Source: Mytilus edulis (taxonomy: Eukaryota). Taken from it: a stretch of DNA of 64,000 nucleotides. Each line of letters opens with the position of its first letter. Position 1 is the first letter of the stretch. Below are positions 35,449 to 42,335 of this stretch, in pieces. The position numbers and the translations under genes were made by a program. The stretch spans positions 13,330,001 to 13,394,000 of the forward strand of contig NC_092352.1 in NCBI RefSeq assembly GCF_963676685.1, in the 5' to 3' direction. Under the pieces are notes generated by a model. It worked only from the letters and a program-made list of their open reading frames with translations, was not told where the DNA came from and searched no databases.

Positions 35449-38400
35449 ATGGTAACGTGTACTTTCTATCCGTTTAAATCCATTCATTTTCCACGATATA
35501 AATGATAATTTTATAGCCTCATTTACAAAATTAAACATCTAATTACATCTCTATTAGTTTTGATTTAAATTTGAGGCATATTTTATATTTAAAACTGTCC
35601 TCGCGCTGATGTCTGAAAACTGAATATTTACCATTTGCCGAAAAAGTTGCAACTTCACTTGTGTCCCTCTTTGATTATAAGTATATCTTTAAAACCGAGT
35701 ACCAAGTAGAGCTTTTACTTCGAGTGTAATGTTATTTATATTACCAATTTGTTTGTAGAAAATAAACCCGATCCATTGGTTCTTTAAAGCAAGACCAGAT
35801 AAATATAAAATTTACCCCATTCTCGTTAACCAACTCTCCTAATATAATGAAAAAGGTTCAATTCCAGACAACTCGCCCAACTAAAATTATTCGCTTGAAC
35901 TTTTGACAAATTTCAATCACTTTCCATTGAGGTAGTCCAAATAATTGTGACGTCTGGCAAGGCTATTTTAATTTTTTTCTGGGACGCCTTCAATGTGGGA
36001 TCAAAAAAAGTCAAAATCGAAAAATACCCACAGCAGACGGCATGATTATCTGGACTACCATTGAGGTATCAGATATTATTTTGTTTTATGATGTTGAAAT
36101 TTTACTGGAAGCTGTATGGTATCCAGTAATGGCAGACAAATAGCGATAAGGTGTATTACAGAGCATATTAAAGGACTAAAGAAATGCTATCGCTCAACAA
36201 CTTTTGTACCTGTTAGTCTTGAGAGATGACAGTTTTGAATATTGCTGAGCTCATAAAGTCCATAAGCAAAGTTGTTAAGTGTTTATGTAGCTCTTCCTGG
36301 ACATTGTCAATTCTTTAATTTGGCTGTCTTGAGTGCTGGCCAAGTACTTCTCAATCTGTTGTGAATTTCAAACACTGCATTGTGGCTTAAACATGTGTAA
36401 CAGAACTATTTTTTTTTGATACATGTATGACTGCAATATTTTTTTTAAATTTGGTCGTATGTAAAGAGAAATTGAATGTACATGATATCTGTATAAAATA
36501 AATTGTTGATTCAAATTGTAAGAAGTTTTATTTTATTTTTATATTTTCAGTCTCATAGAAAATTCTCGGCTCCTCGGCACGGTTCTAAAGGCTTCCTCCC
36601 CAAGAAGAGGGCCAAACGTCACCGTGGAAAAGTGAAGTCATTTCCCAATGATGACAAGAACAAGCCAGTTCATCTCACAGCATTTATTGGATACAAGGCT
36701 GGAATGTCCCATATTGTCCGAGAAGTTGATAGACCAGGATCCAGTATGTTGATTTTAAAGTTATTTTATAGTTAATATAAAAGGAATATTATGAGACTAC
36801 ATTTGTAGTAAGGACATGTATTAAATCAAGTACCATAAGTGTTCTTCCTGGAAGGTTTTTGAATGCAAAACCTTGCTATTCATATCCATATAGTTTCTAA
36901 TTTCCCGTGCCTTCCTTAATACTTTTACCCGACAATATCAAATATCAAGGTAGTTATTTACAAGCTTTTCAAATGGTATAAACATTTCACTGATGGAAAC
37001 TAGATCTGTGACAATTTTGTAACTTATTCTCATAAGATTCAATAAAATGCCAGCTACAATTTCGCAAACGATTTCAGATGATTGATGGGGCAATCACCAG
37101 TGCTTCTGCCCACAAGTCAAATGCAGTCTTCACACTGAGTGGCAGCCCAGGCTGGTAAAATTGCTCTTGGGCCTGTTAAAATCATATCTACAGGCCAACA
37201 GAATCTTAACTAAAAAAATTCAAAAATTGAGCTCCGGGTCTGTATAGATTTTGAAGTTCATCGTGAAGACTGCAAATGACATTTTTCCTAGACTGGGACT
37301 TTGGACTACTCATTGAGTCTTGTTCAGACTATTTTGATGAATATAAAATTTAATAAATCATGTGGTTATTTTAAAGTTGATTTATCAGGTCAGGAATAAC
37401 CACCAATTGGTGGATTATACCTCAATTGACGTATAATCCACCAATTGACATATAATGGTATAGACCAATTGGTGTATAATTCATTGTTTTTCAAAACAAA
37501 TTATTCTACCAAAATGGAGCATTGTTTTCTTAAAACCATATTATGGTATGAAAACTTGTCAAACATTTCTAGTTTAGTATAGTGACATAACATATTGCAT
37601 TTAATCAATAATTGTATTTGCAGTTTCTTCTATTGTTATCTTGTCAATTCTTGATTGGCAAATTTACCTGTAATCACCTGTCAATGGACATCATTATTGT
37701 CTGCAGTCATGTGATCATGAGTACAACTCCACAGGTGAATGGAGCTCTTTGTTAATACTTGACTTTCATTATCTAAAGTCAATCATGGTCAATAGTACAA
37801 ATGTTTCAACAAAAGAATTGATGTACACATGCATTCTCAAGAGATGCAGCAGGCTTTGACAAAACTGAAACTTTCGGAGGACTCAATAAGGGTCATAAAA
37901 TAGGTTGCAAGTTGCAAAATCATGCTCCTATCTCACACTAGCATTTTATTACAAAACATTTGCATTATACGTCAATTGGTCTATACCAATATACCTCAAT
38001 TGGTGGATTATACGTCAATTGAGGTATAATCCACCAATTGGTGGTTATTCCTGACCTGTTTATACAAACTGACATTTCAATTTTATTTTATAGAATCTCA
38101 CAAGAAAGAGATCGTAGAAGCTGTAACTATTTTGGAAGCACCACCCATGATGGTTGTAGGTGTAGTTGGATATATTGAAACTCCAAGTGGTTTAAGAGCA
38201 TTTAAAACCATCTTTGCTGAACATCTTAGTGAAGAGTGCAAAAGACGTTTCTACAAGAATTGGTATGAACAAAAGTTCTTTATATATTGCTGTAAAAATG
38301 ATACTTCACAGAAATTTATGAAACAACACAGGGCCTAGGTGTGTGATCTCTGTCATTATCTCTATGGATTTTCATTTCTCACAATTTTATTATTTAAAAA

Positions 38401-41400
38401 TTCCAGAGCAATTGAAAGACATATTTTGGAGTTTGTTTCTCATGGAAATCATTGTTACCAGGGAATGTAGTTTTGAAAATTTCCAATTTGAATGATTGTA
38501 CAGAGGGGGCCTTTATACTAATTGATATTAAAGCTACAAGTCAAAATCTAAACACTAGTAGAACAGACTAGATGATTAACATATAGTATATCTGTCTAAA
38601 GGTGGTTGAAAGTTCAGGATTGATATACATATAATTATACATTTATTGAATAGAACTGATTTGCTAATTTGTTTTGTGCACTCTTTCTTTTTCAATATTT
38701 ACAGGTGATTGATGCCACGAGATTGACAGTGTCTCATTATCAATCACTAGGAAAGTGGCTCAACTTGAAGCTCCTCTTGGTTTTAAACCAATGAGCTTGT
38801 TACAATGACGTTTCCGCTCATGAATATAATTTCATGATGAAACGGTTCATATTTATTTAAGGTACCGATCAAAGAAGAAGGCATTCTCCAAGTCTGCCAA
38901 GAAATGGCAGGATGAGGCTGGAAAGAAAGAGATAGAGCGTGATTTCAACAAGATGAAGAAGTACTGTAGAGTCATCCGAGTCCTTGCACATACTCAGGTA
39001 AGGCAATTATTTCGACACAAAATGTAGATACAGTGCAGTCCAGTGTATCCGCGCACCCAAGACTTGTGATTTCACTTTGTTCAACTAATAAAACCAACAA
39101 TTGGATAATACTTTTATTTCATAAAATCTTCTGTTTGTATGGTTTCACCTTTAAGATTTTGTGTAATGTATGTCCAAAATTAGGGGAACCCTGTTCTGAG
39201 AGTTCCTCAAATGTCTGGTGATATGGTGCATGCCTTCCAAAAATATCTTATTTTGAATAAAGGAAAGATTTTCTACTACAAAATTTGGCTGAATGTTAAC
39301 CAAGCACACTGCCAAGGATACATAGCAAAAGTTATTTCCATCTGATATAAATTTGACTTAAATAACACGAATTTTATCTGATGAGGCCAAATAAAAATAT
39401 ATGTGTGGTTCCAGTAACCCTACCGTCCCTACTTTTTCGGCTGAAAAATAGCCTACCCTAAATATTTTATTGTCATTTTTCATTAAGCACTGTTAAAGTC
39501 AGAATGTTGCTCCCATAGACTCAATTTAAAAAAAAAAACATAAAATAAAAAAATATCCCTACCTACCTTAACTTTTTTTCAGATGTAACTGGAACCACAC
39601 ATACTTTTTTATTTGGCCTGATGTAATTATTTTAATCGAAATTGGCCATATATTGTAAATCAAGGGATTGGAGTTGTTTATTTGATGAAATCCGCTAATG
39701 CGCTGCATCACCAGCCGCGGGGACTGGGGACTCCACTGTACGTCTTTAAAGAAACACCACAGTAATCTTAATTTGTGGTAGCGAGCTGACTGAGTGCAAG
39801 AGGTCTGGTTTAAATACCTGGTGCAGTCTAACCAAAACTGCACGTTCAAAATGACACAGGTTACATGACAACACTCGAGACATAATAAATGTAAGAACTA
39901 TAGAAACTTGTTTCTAATTTCTGGATAATAGACTTGTAAAGTAGAAAAAAATCATTGAAAAATACAGAAATAAAAACACAGTGAGAGAAAAAAAATCTAA
40001 ATGATGTGTTATTACCAGATAGGCCCATTCTAGCATTTGAATCTAATACAGCATAGCATAAACATCAAAATATTGATCAACCCTAAATGAAAATATCATT
40101 CTTTCTATTTTTGGTGGCATGATTTACGTTGTGGTGCTTAGCTTATATAATATAGTACTGAACATTGTCTTTATTGCAGACCAAGTTGATGAAGAAACGT
40201 CAAAAGAAAGCCCACATTATGGAGATCCAAGTTAATGGTGGTACCATCTCCCAGAAAGTAGACTGGGCTAGAGATTACTTTGAAAAGAGCATCCCAGTAA
40301 AGAATGTGTTTGCCCAGGATGAAAACATTGATATCATTGGTGTAACCAAGGGTAAAGGAGTAAAAGGTAAGATTGTAAACAAAAGAAAGGTGTTGAATAA
40401 CATTGTTTCAAAAAGTTTTAAAATCCACTAGTACAGAAACAAAACTTGTCCCTCTATATGGCTACAATTTTTTTTTTAAATTTTCACCTAGTCCAAATCA
40501 ATAATTACTAGTCTGGGGCACAAGACTAGTGGCTAACAGTGCAGACTGGTACAAGTATTACAGTAGCTTTCTTTTAAAGAGACTGTTTATTACATCAGTT
40601 CAAATCATGAAGAATTTTGTCATATTTAATATAACATCTGTTGAACTTGTATTCTTAGATTGAGTTTCTGTTAAATCTGTCTCGTGACTACTGAAAGATC
40701 CACTCGTGTTAAAAGGATAAATGCAAAAATATCAAAAGTATTGGTAAAGCTCTCTGTGACAACTCCCAACATTATCCTCCAGTTTAATATATATAATGTA
40801 TTATGTTAATAGGTGTAACATCCAGATGGCACTGTAAGAAATTACCAAGGAAGACACACAAAGGTCTACGTAAGGTAGCCTGTATTGGAGCTTGGCATCC
40901 AAGTCGTGTCCAGTTCACTGTGGCCAGAGCTGGACAGAAGGGTTACCATCACAGGACTGAAATCAACAAAAAGATCTATCGTCTTGGTGATGGATACCAC
41001 ACTAAGGAGGGCAAGCTTATCACAAGCAATGGTTCTACTGAATATGATGCTGATGAGAAGCCAATCACTCCAATGGGAGGATTCCCTCATTATGGAGAAG
41101 TATCAAACGACTTTGTCATGGTTAAGGGATGTTGTGTTGGACCCAAGAAGAGAGTTGTCACACTTAGAAAGGTACATTTTATTTAAACTTCAACATCATT
41201 ATGAAAAAAAATGGAATTGCTGTCAATGAAGAATAAAACAAGTATGTGTTAATATTATAACACTGTGTTATATACAGTTAATTATTTTTGTTAAATTTGA
41301 GAATCAATCAATGATGAAACACATGGAAAGTATCCCTGCCGGGATACTCTGAATTTGATGAAGATTTCACCCATGTTGCCTTCCTTCTGATGATTGATTC

Positions 41401-42335
41401 TTGAAATACATGTCAATTTTAAATACAGTTAAAATAAATACTATCTGGGAACACATGCACATTGTTGCTTTACAATAGTATATAAATTTACATTTTATGT
41501 TTGTTTCTGTTTACAGTCTCTCTTGGCATCGTTCAAAAAGAAGCAAATGGAGAAGATTGACCTGAAATTCATTGACACCGCCAGTAAATTTGGTCATGGA
41601 CGTTTCCAGACATTCAAGGAGAAACACAACTTTATGGTAGGTTTAATTGTATACTTTCAGGCATCATTATTTAAATAGATATATGAAGATGTGGTGCGAG
41701 TCCCAATGAGACAACTCTCCATCCAAATACAATTTTTAAAAGTAAACCATTATAGGTCAAGGTACAGACTTCAACACAGAGCCTTGGCTCACACCGAACA
41801 AAAAGCTATGAAGGGCCCCAAAATTACTAGTGTAAAACCATTCAAACGGGAAAACCAACGGTCTAATCTATATTTAAAAAAAAAACGAGAAATATGAAGT
41901 AAACACGATAAATAAAGGGGGTAAAAATAAGTTGTAGGGAGTTGCAATATAACCCTTGTTAATTTGGAGCTGTTAATCTAAATGATGAAACACGTGGATG
42001 ATGTCCCTGCCAGGATATCCTGAATTTAGTGAAGATTTAACCATGTTGCCTTCCTTCTGATAGATTAACTATTCAATTGTTGGGCTTTCACAAACACCAA
42101 ACCAGGCAAAACTACAGATTACTAAAATGATTTCGGTAATACTTTACAAAATCACTATATAAACGTACATATTTATTACATTTAAGTGTTGTTTTATTTG
42201 CATTTCTCTTGTAAACAGGATGATACTCTTATTTAAAAAGTATCCACCATGCTCACCTGCATTTCTAATATATGTGTTTTCCTATTTTAGGGTCCACTCA
42301 AGAAAGATGCTGTAGCAAAAACAGAGGCTTCTTAG
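35449..42335 (+). CDS. RPL3: 60S ribosomal protein L3 (uL3), 403 aa, 8 coding exons
   Basis: Exons 35449-35451 (ATG), 36551-36743, 38094-38262, 38862-38997, 40180-40366, 40813-41171, 41517-41636 and 42291-42335 sum to 1212 nt in frame. Translation [13 protein letters not shown]...[30 protein letters not shown]...[13 protein letters not shown]...GPLKKD. AATAAA at 42355-42360. Confidence 0.98.
35932..36058. mobile_element. Small MITE in RPL3 intron 1
   Basis: GTAGTCCA ... TGGACTAC flanked by a CATTGAG direct repeat; its core is also present, inverted, at about 32293-32329. Confidence 0.8.
37124..37272. mobile_element. Short MITE with 6-bp TSD in RPL3 intron 2
   Basis: CAAATG|CAGTCTTCAC ... 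GTGAAGACTG|CAAATG. Confidence 0.8.
37386..38058. mobile_element. Fold-back element with TIRs of about 95 bp and a 5-bp TSD in RPL3 intron 2
   Basis: TTTAT|CAGGTCAGGAATAACCACCAATTGGTGGATTATACCTCAATTGACGTATAATCC ... perfect inverse ...GTTATTCCTGACCTG|TTTAT. Confidence 0.92.
38705..38861 (+). promoter_or_regulatory. Candidate unproductive (PTC-containing) 5' extension of RPL3 exon 4 via an alternative 3' splice site
   Basis: Branch-like GCTAAT at 38663-38668, pyrimidine tract at 38681-38693, CAG at 38702-38704. Splicing from exon 3 gives TG|G TGA (Trp, then stop). The segment contains three hairpins. Confidence 0.65.
39385..39618. mobile_element. MITE with 3-bp TSD (TGA) in RPL3 intron 4
   Basis: GGCCAAATAAAAA...TGTGTGGTTCCAGT / ACTGGAACCACACA...TTTTTATTTGGCC. 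Confidence 0.85.
41301..41400 (+). ncRNA. SNORD83: Box C/D snoRNA, U83/SNORD83 family, copy 1 (RPL3 intron 6)
   Basis: Terminal stem GAATCAATCA/TGATTGATTC; C box ATGATGA at 41311-41317; D' CTGA at 41349; C' TTGATGA at 41355; D CTGA at 41387-41390. The guide TGTTGCCTTCCTT matches vertebrate U83 as I recall it and is complementary to 18S AAGGAAGGCAGCA. Confidence 0.9.
41972..42069 (+). ncRNA. SNORD83: Box C/D snoRNA, U83/SNORD83 family, copy 2 (RPL3 intron 7)
   Basis: Terminal stem GTTAATCTA/TAGATTAAC; C box ATGATGA at 41982-41988; D box CTGA at 42057-42060; identical guide CCATGTTGCCTTCCTT; paralogous to copy 1. Confidence 0.9.

What the first reader, a model, noticed from the sequence alone, without database searches (positions are those of the whole stretch)
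41301..42069. Two U83-type snoRNAs in consecutive RPL3 introns with compensatory changes and unrelated terminal stems
Seen: both copies keep the C and D boxes and the guide TGTTGCCTTCCTT. The segment before D' is a hairpin rather than a guide (AGTATCCC-TGCC-GGGATACT versus GATGTCC-CTGCCA-GGATATC). The 9-10 bp terminal stems differ in sequence but pair perfectly. The D boxes are 126 and 230 nt from the acceptors, further than typical. Known: vertebrate RPL3 hosts U83A/B, long regarded as orphan-like. Inference: host-snoRNA linkage predates the protostome-deuterostome split. The D+5 rule points to the A at the fifth position of 18S AAGGAAGGCAGCA, supporting a real rRNA target.
Basis: partly seen in the sequence, partly recalled or inferred. 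Interest (0 to 1): 0.7.

Follow-up and report, generated by a model that had tools for sequence, protein, structure and literature searches.

The report
Known U83-type guide RNAs in mussel
Two small guide RNAs sit in the last two introns of a mussel's ribosomal protein L3 gene, are both expressed, and are predicted to direct a well-known methyl mark on 18S ribosomal RNA; the same guide lies in the same gene in humans and fruit flies, so this is an ordinary and likely ancient arrangement.

Summary
Real, but mostly known. Both box C/D snoRNAs are there (41306-41392, 41977-42062), in the last two introns of the single RPL3 gene of a Mytilus mussel. Small-RNA reads (three runs, one study) come from the sense strand only and show textbook mature ends. 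The 13-nt guide pairs with this genome's own 18S and the D+5 rule gives A429, the site of human Am468, fly Am425 and yeast Am420. That target is published (SNORD83A/B, Me18S-A425, snR52), so 'orphan-like' is out of date. The fly guide is also hosted in RpL3 in published tables. I found the guide in RPL3 introns of an ascidian, an insect, a clam and an unplaced animal, so an ancestral bilaterian link to the gene is likely. The intron differs between lineages, and other animals use an MCM gene or RPLP0. Rfam scores fall just under the snoU83B cut-off (34.3 and 32.0 against 35). Left unexplained: the hairpin before box D', whose 11-nt core is identical in the ascidian and clam copies and nearly so here, and in whose loop the 34-nt 5' fragments of both copies end. 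The scan noted this family before in a yeast, not in RPL3.

The parts
35449..42335 (+). RPL3 (uL3) host gene, 403 aa; coding exons 35449-35451, 36551-36743, 38094-38262, 38862-38997, 40180-40366, 40813-41171, 41517-41636, 42291-42335
   Evidence: Open spliced frame; Pfam PF00297 E 1.9e-56 for exon 6; 6 of 7 introns seen as joints in reads or contigs, the first not; 99.8% identical to a protein named Mytilus galloprovincialis uL3; one copy found in the genome
41172..41516 (+). Intron 6 (345 nt, after coding base 1047), host of copy 1
   Evidence: 791 reads over the joint in X24
41306..41392 (+). Mature snoRNA copy 1, 87 nt
   Evidence: 5' end at 41306 in 3 of 3 small-RNA runs (44, 15, 58 molecules), 3' end at 41392 in 1 of 3 (7 molecules), + strand only; Rfam snoU83B 34.3 bits, E 1.8e-4
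41296..41405 (+). External stem of copy 1 (41296-41310 with 41391-41405; 11 contiguous Watson-Crick pairs, 15 with two G-U), mostly trimmed from the mature RNA
41311..41317 (+). Box C of copy 1
41321..41376 (+). Internal stem of copy 1 (41321-41326 with 41371-41376), overlapping the first bases of the guide
   Evidence: 72.5% of cells paired in 16 sequences
41329..41348 (+). Hairpin before D' in copy 1; 5' fragments end in its loop at 41339
41349..41364 (+). Boxes D' (41349-41352) and C' (41358-41364) of copy 1
41374..41390 (+). Guide (41374-41386) and box D (41387-41390) of copy 1; pairs with own 18S 425-437, D+5 = A429
41637..42290 (+). Intron 7 (654 nt, after coding base 1167), host of copy 2; holds a high-copy repeat at about 41674-41873
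   Evidence: (369 reads over the joint in X24)
41977..42062 (+). Mature snoRNA copy 2, 86 nt; 71 of 87 aligned columns identical to copy 1
   Evidence: 5' end at 41977 in 3 of 3 small-RNA runs (18, 16, 18 molecules), 3' end at 42062 in 1 of 3 (5 molecules); Rfam snoU83B 32.0 bits, snoU83 35.8 bits
41972..42069 (+). External stem of copy 2 (41972-41980 with 42061-42069, 9 Watson-Crick pairs)
42000..42019 (+). Hairpin before D' in copy 2; reads carry A at 42003, turning the G-U into A-U; 5' fragments end in the loop at 42010
   Evidence: (41/41, 40/40, 48/48 reads)
42020..42060 (+). Boxes D' (42020-42023), C' (42029-42035), guide (42044-42056) and box D (42057-42060) of copy 2

Best explanation
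These are two expressed box C/D snoRNAs in the last two introns of the mussel RPL3 gene, predicted to guide 2'-O-methylation of 18S rRNA A429 (human Am468, fly Am425, yeast Am420) and likely descended from a U83/snR52-type guide that already sat in RPL3 in early bilaterians. Shown: sequence elements, splicing of both host introns, sense-strand small RNAs with ends 5 nt before box C and 2 nt after box D, and complementarity to the genome's own 18S. Inferred from established box C/D biology: release from the debranched intron by exonuclease trimming, binding of SNU13, NOP56/58 and fibrillarin, methylation of the base paired to the fifth nucleotide before box D. Inferred: the D' side is not a guide because it folds into a hairpin; the long external stems make up for the far-from-acceptor position; the two copies arose by duplication into a neighbouring intron and are redundant; the snoRNA has moved between RPL3 introns in different lineages.
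For: Rfam: best hits are snoU83B, snoU83, snoZ13_snr52 and snoU83D, and only these two places match RF00593 in the genome at E<=10 among 52 scored candidates. Target: 13-nt pairing with one G-U at 18S 425-437, the best duplex in 18S/5.8S/28S (-21.7 against -18.9 kcal/mol for the next). Site and guide are published: A468-SNORD83A, chicken A429 = snR52 = U83a/b, fly Am425 measured by RiboMeth-seq at about 0.67-0.82 and lowered on fibrillarin knockdown, equated with human 468 and yeast 420. Expression and ends; no other small-RNA peak in the gene in the one run laid over it. Structure: hairpin 88% of cells paired, 5 of 6 pairs with a change on both sides in 16 sequences; whole structure beats 500 of 500 shuffles on covariation score and all six slid controls. 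Host: RPL3 in human, fly and 4 of 118 metagenome stretches, placed as an ascidian (L019), an insect-like arthropod (L055), a clam (L086) and an unplaced animal (L099). External stems permit splicing-independent assembly in human (review passage).
Against: Both copies miss Rfam gathering scores (34.3 and 32.0 of 35 for snoU83B; 33.7 and 35.8 of 50 for snoU83; 0 hits at gathering). Methylation and protein binding were not measured. The three small-RNA runs are one study; full-length 3' ends were listed in one run each, on 7 and 5 molecules. Against a stable ancestral host: the intron differs (after coding base 688 in L019, about codon 298 in L055, 1047 in copy 1, L086 and L099, 1167 in copy 2; human introns 5 and 7); 10 of the 12 loci with the same hairpin type have no RPL3 exon in the DNA held (2 in an MCM gene, 8 of one near-identical type with host not established); sponges use RPLP0; snoRNA location is reported to be unstable over deep time. 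The covariation controls do not correct for relatedness and 7 of the 16 rows are one near-identical group.
Confidence: 0.85

Rival explanations
1. The guide function is as above, but RPL3 was colonised independently in vertebrates/ascidians, insects and bivalves because ribosomal-protein genes are favoured hosts (constrained drift); the shared host is convergence.
For: Different introns in each lineage; other hosts in sponges and in L028/L105 (MCM gene); fly RpL3 hosts three different C/D snoRNAs, so RPL3 takes in snoRNAs readily; PMC3511168 finds location unstable across eukaryotes.
Against: The same gene, out of about 79 ribosomal-protein genes and many other hosts, in human, ascidian, fly, a second insect-like arthropod, mussel and clam; the ascidian copy lies in the intron after base 688, which by my recalled human exon map is the SNORD83A intron; ascidian and clam copies share an identical 11-nt hairpin core; movement between introns of one gene is reported for sponge U83 itself.
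Confidence: 0.25
2. Besides guiding A429 methylation, the RNAs have a second role through the conserved hairpin before D' (a protein-binding or cleavage site that yields a defined 34-nt 5' RNA, or a strand that pairs with another RNA when opened).
For: CCCTGCCAGGG is identical in the ascidian, clam and MCM-hosted copies and differs by one base in each mussel copy; 5' fragments of both copies end at the same loop base in 3 of 3 runs; the Rfam snoU83B consensus also has a hairpin at this place.
Against: The loop differs in 8 other loci (GGCG/GGTA type) and in the vertebrate consensus; L055 and the fungal-type loci lack this core; no run of complementarity of 10 or more Watson-Crick pairs to own rRNA, spacers or U1 in the 5' half of either copy; an exposed loop in a protected particle is the expected place for decay cuts, and the libraries are size-selected.
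Confidence: 0.12
3. One copy is a decaying duplicate (copy 2, with a weaker hairpin, a repeat inserted upstream and 230 nt to the acceptor).
For: C-A instead of C-G at the hairpin top and a G-U in the assembly; mature copy 2 folds no better than shuffles (z -0.67); high-copy repeat in the same intron.
Against: All boxes and the guide are intact, it is expressed with correct ends in 3 of 3 runs, the common allele restores A-U at 42003 (4 of 4 runs), and its 9-bp external stem is perfect.
Confidence: 0.04

Closest known systems
Human SNORD83A/SNORD83B (U83A/B; Rfam RF00593 snoU83B)
   Same: Same 3' guide and D box, same 18S site (A468), two copies in two RPL3 introns, a hairpin before D' and a short internal stem in the Rfam consensus.
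   Different: Human copies are in introns 5 and 7; the mussel copies are at the positions of introns 8 and 9, and the mussel gene lacks two introns in the middle. Hairpin sequence differs. One G-U in the guide. Scores 0.7 and 3 bits under the Rfam cut-off.
Drosophila snoRNA:Me18S-A425 (FBgn0086056, CD23)
   Same: Box C/D, 80 nt, guides 18S Am425 (equated with human 468 and yeast 420), host RpL3 (PMC11014333 Tables S3, S4, S6).
   Different: One copy listed; its intron and sequence were not seen here, so the hairpin could not be compared.
Yeast snR52 / Rfam RF00335 snoZ13_snr52, RF01179 snoU83, RF01175 snoU83D
   Same: Same 3' guide TGCCTTCCTTCTGA and 18S site (Am420).
   Different: Middle region differs; scores 15-34 bits under their cut-offs; no RPL3 host seen for the fungal-type loci.
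Sponge SNORD83-like snoRNAs (Perina et al. 2012, PMC3412847)
   Same: Conserved U83 guide, duplicated in two introns of one ribosomal-protein gene, with the intron differing between species.
   Different: Host is RPP0 (RPLP0), not RPL3.

Membership tests
Box C/D methylation-guide snoRNA | Box C (RUGAUGA) near the 5' end and box D (CUGA) near the 3' end | tested here: met
   both copies
Box C/D methylation-guide snoRNA | Internal D' and C' boxes | tested here: met
   CTGA and RTGAAGA (one change from consensus) in both copies
Box C/D methylation-guide snoRNA | 10 or more bases complementary to a target directly before D or D' | tested here: met
   13 nt, one G-U, own 18S 425-437
Box C/D methylation-guide snoRNA | Stable small RNA with ends a few bases outside boxes C and D, on the host's sense strand | tested here: met
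   5' ends 5 nt before C in 3 of 3 runs; 3' ends 2 nt after D in one run each; no antisense reads
Box C/D methylation-guide snoRNA | Binds SNU13, NOP56, NOP58 and fibrillarin | not testable with these tools
   Needs immunoprecipitation
Box C/D methylation-guide snoRNA | Target nucleotide is 2'-O-methylated and depends on the guide | not testable with these tools
   Measured only at the equivalent site in fly, human, yeast and Xenopus
Guides of the 18S Am468/Am425/Am420 site (U83A/B, Me18S-A425, snR52) | 3' guide ending GCCUUCCUU-CUGA with D+5 on the fifth base of AAGGAAGGC | tested here: met
   A429; equivalence table and chicken A429
Rfam RF00593 snoU83B | Score at or above the gathering threshold of 35 bits | tested here: not met
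   34.3 and 32.0 bits; the ascidian relative L019 passes with 48.1
Rfam RF00593 snoU83B | Hairpin before D' and internal stem as in the family consensus | tested here: met
   Consensus printed
Rfam RF01179 snoU83 / RF00335 snoZ13_snr52 | Score at or above gathering (50 and 47 bits) | tested here: not met
   33.7/35.8 and 31.8/27.3 bits
Positional orthologue of human SNORD83A/B | Same host gene | tested here: met
   RPL3 in both
Positional orthologue of human SNORD83A/B | Same intron | tested here: not met
   Human introns 5 and 7; here the introns flanking the 120-bp exon for residues 350-389, exon 9 in human RPL3L; equal numbering in RPL3 is recalled

The most novel reading that the evidence does not exclude
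The hairpin that replaces the D' guide is an ancient functional element of animal U83, kept letter for letter between a tunicate and bivalves for over half a billion years, and its loop is a programmed cleavage or protein-binding site that releases a defined 34-nt 5' RNA with a job beyond 18S methylation.
Probability: 0.12. Interest if true: 0.6.

Novelty: new member of a known kind. Interest (0 to 1): 0.2.

Why it matters
Modestly. It adds lophotrochozoan and tunicate points to a snoRNA-host pairing already on record for human and fly, making U83-RPL3 a likely case of a gene-level link kept across bilaterians while the intron changes; SNORD100-RPS12 is a published parallel. It also shows that Rfam cut-offs miss expressed invertebrate members of this family. 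It does not resolve an orphan: the target is published. Only the conserved hairpin and the fragments ending in its loop could lead somewhere new.

Tried and rejected
Rfam at gathering scores over the window: 0 hits. Pairing of the hairpin core with the 5' end of U1 snRNA: rejected, the genome's own U1 differs there. A second guide in the 5' half: no long or shared match to own 18S, 5.8S, 28S, spacers or U1. Other snoRNAs in RPL3 introns 1-5: three weak C/D-like candidates, none with a small-RNA peak in the one run laid over the gene; the guide motif seen in L019 intron 3 is absent from the window. Further U83 copies or an RPL3 paralogue in the genome: none found (these searches score only the best candidates); own model R1 finds only the two copies in the window, by construction. 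One search used a structure that I had put in the wrong register and is void; one search is the corrected count. Host of the eight-locus group: no RPL3 exon in 0.7-7.1 kb of held DNA, one Ig-domain stretch about 1.8 kb upstream in L039; host left open. The look-up of sequencing runs listed no holder on record as RNA; the raw-read runs came by species label. Papers not held: Huang et al. 2005 and Jady and Kiss 2000. Paper searches gave no report of a mollusc U83 in RPL3 and no explicit statement of bilaterian ancestry for this pair; subscription papers and snoRNA databases were not searchable.
Full report
Setting. The region lies in an eight-exon RPL3 gene on the + strand (35449-42335) that splices to an open 403-residue frame. 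The protein is 99.8% identical to one named Mytilus galloprovincialis uL3 and groups with it at full support, so the animal is a Mytilus mussel. A search with exon 6 found one RPL3 in the 1.37-Gb genome. Six of the seven introns are seen as joints in reads or contigs; intron 1 was not.

Observation. Both RNAs are present as described, with boxes C, D', C' and D and the guide TGTTGCCTTCCTT. D ends lie 126 and 230 nt before the acceptors. The guide plus D box occurs twice in the genome, both times here; a shorter 14-mer has 5 matches, and only these 2 have a C box. The copies are identical at 71 of 87 columns. In the hairpin before D' two pairs change on both sides, one turns to G-U and the top pair is lost in copy 2.

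Family. Rfam gives nothing at gathering scores. At relaxed thresholds 7 of the 8 hits in 7 kb fall on the two copies: snoU83B 34.3 and 32.0 bits (cut-off 35), snoU83 33.7 and 35.8 (50), snoZ13_snr52 31.8 and 27.3 (47), snoU83D 21.3 (55). They therefore work like U83 but are not formal Rfam members; an ascidian relative does pass (48.1 bits).

Target. I took this genome's own rDNA. The guide pairs with 18S 425-437 over 13 nt with one G-U, and the fifth base before box D faces A429. It is the best duplex in 18S, 5.8S and 28S (-21.7 against -18.9 kcal/mol). This is published ground: chicken GGgCD10 for 18S-A429 is equated with snR52 and U83a/b (PMC2653536, table passage); human SSU A468 was reassigned to SNORD83A (PMC5027482, passages; also the table passage of PMC11550049); fly Am425 was measured by RiboMeth-seq, drops on fibrillarin knockdown and is equated with human 468, yeast 420 and Xenopus 433 (PMC11014333, main-text passage and rows of Tables S3, S4). 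Methylation in the mussel is inferred, not measured.

Expression. In three small-RNA runs of one study (174, 111 and 244 reads laid on 1.2 kb, about 13% of each run read), reads pile up on both RNAs on the sense strand only. 5' ends are at 41306 and 41977 in 3 of 3 runs, 5 nt before box C; 3' ends are listed at 41392 (7 molecules, X21) and 42062 (5 molecules, X22), 2 nt after box D. Most of each external stem is thus trimmed away. An mRNA library has no depth on either RNA but shows both introns spliced. Over the whole gene, in the one small-RNA run laid, these are the only peaks. The commonest listed 3' ends are in the hairpin loop (41339 and 42010, the same base in both copies, 34-nt fragments); size selection may favour such lengths. 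All reads of copy 2 carry A at 42003, which turns a G-U into A-U, as do contigs of three further runs, two of them under other organism labels.

Distance to the acceptor. A review passage states that human box C/D RNAs sit preferentially about 50 nt before the branch point and that long external stems can make assembly independent of splicing (PMC5519232); long external stems that run past the mature ends are described in PMC4150776 (passages). Both copies fit that picture. The distance is not peculiar to the mussel: relatives lie 74-78 nt (L019, L055, L099), 99-146 nt (L028, L105) and 311 and 741 nt (L086) from the next acceptor. The compensation is inferred.

Host gene. Human SNORD83A/B lie in RPL3 introns 5 and 7, and sponge relatives in RPP0 (PMC3412847, passages). 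The fly guide Me18S-A425 is listed with host RpL3 (Table S6 row), so a protostome with the same host is already on record. A pattern scan of metagenome contigs gave 118 stretches (capped; flanks fetched for 80). RPL3 exons surround the RNA in 4 of 118: L019, sister to Phallusia (92% identity; 99/93), an ascidian; L055, with insects; L086, sister to Mya, a clam, with two copies in one intron; L099, unplaced (the plant Ziziphus row was left out of both trees and Wuchereria out of the second; unnamed proteins were not used). I did not determine hosts for most of the other stretches, many of which look fungal or are chance matches (my judgement). Twelve of the 118 share the CCC...GG hairpin core: 2 in RPL3, 2 in introns of an MCM gene (L028, L105) and 8 near-identical loci with no RPL3 exon in the DNA held. 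The intron varies: after coding base 688 (L019), about codon 298 (L055), 1047 (copy 1, L086, L099) and 1167 (copy 2). The mussel's two introns flank the 120-bp exon for residues 350-389, which is exon 9 in human RPL3L (PMC6123807, passages); that RPL3 is numbered alike, and that base 688 marks human intron 5, is recalled. The simplest reading is an ancestral bilaterian U83 in RPL3 that hops between introns and sometimes leaves (about 70%); repeated colonisation of a favoured host is the rival, in line with the mobility reported in PMC3511168 (abstract and passages; U83 is not named in its main text, its supplements were not opened and may bear on this).

Structure. On a MAFFT alignment of 16 animal-type sequences (the two copies and 14 from 10 loci; L039 and L076 left out as near-duplicates, L055 because it lacks the hairpin) the hairpin has 88% of cells paired and 5 of 6 pairs with a change on both sides; the internal stem has 72.5%. 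The whole structure exceeds all 500 shuffles on percentage paired and covariation score but not on further pair types (378 of 500), and relatedness is not corrected. The 11-mer CCCTGCCAGGG is identical in L019, L086, L028 and L105. I found no partner for it in own rRNA, spacers or U1. It most likely only occupies an unused D' guide; a second function is the bold reading.

Verdict. A true, expressed pair of U83/snR52-type guides, correctly read by the first stage, with a published target and a host link already visible in published human and fly data. Searches found no report for a mollusc. New member of a known kind; interest 0.2.

Noticed in passing
window 38680-38861 (RPL3 intron 3): A strong pyrimidine tract and AG at 38703-38704 lie 157 nt before the weak-looking normal acceptor; use of it would put a stop codon directly after exon 3. 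Human rpL3 regulates itself through a cryptic 3' splice site in intron 3 coupled to NMD (PMC3177206, passages). Short motifs (GCTCCTCT, CATGATGA..CATATTT) are shared with the clam L086. One contig covers 38461-38890 at depth 19 against about 3600 for the mRNA but begins before this AG, so use of the site is not shown.
   Followed up: partly
L019:3985-4040 and L019:4619-4696: The ascidian RPL3 carries two more box C/D candidates: one in intron 3 with a guide complementary to 18S about 1656-1664 of the mussel numbering (U43-like, label recalled) and one in intron 4 matching Rfam snoR1 at 29 bits, E 0.025.
   Followed up: partly
L028:351-442, L105:295-385 and 774-865: U83-type RNAs with the same hairpin core in consecutive introns of an MCM helicase gene (Pfam MCM_lid; MCM6 by my recall): a host switch with local duplication in an unplaced animal.
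   Followed up: partly
L023, L026, L033, L039, L045, L076, L077, L128: A near-identical group of U83-type RNAs with a GGCG or GGTA hairpin loop, two in tandem in L045, with no RPL3 exon nearby; an Ig-domain stretch lies upstream in L039.
   Followed up: partly
window 41674-41873, also about 35930-36160, 37000-38060, 39050-39620, 40440-40530: High-copy repeats in RPL3 introns; the one in intron 7 draws small-RNA reads on both strands.
   Followed up: no
window 41517-41636, 42291-42335 (run X24): A run with the same species label differs from the window at several fixed exon positions (e.g. 630 of 630 reads at 41531) although only one RPL3 was found in the genome; possibly a related species or a divergent population.
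   Followed up: no
window 42190-42219: A second pyrimidine tract and AG inside intron 7, 71 nt before the used acceptor; no joint to it was listed.
   Followed up: partly
window 39682-39789 and 36091-36248: Weak C/D-like candidates in introns 4 and 1 with 6- and 8-bp stems and 10-nt rRNA matches; no small-RNA peak, likely chance.
   Followed up: yes
G000:C8:42702771-42728200, C1204, C1405: U1 snRNA genes in tandem arrays with a period of about 1353 bases, 42 matches scored.
   Followed up: no
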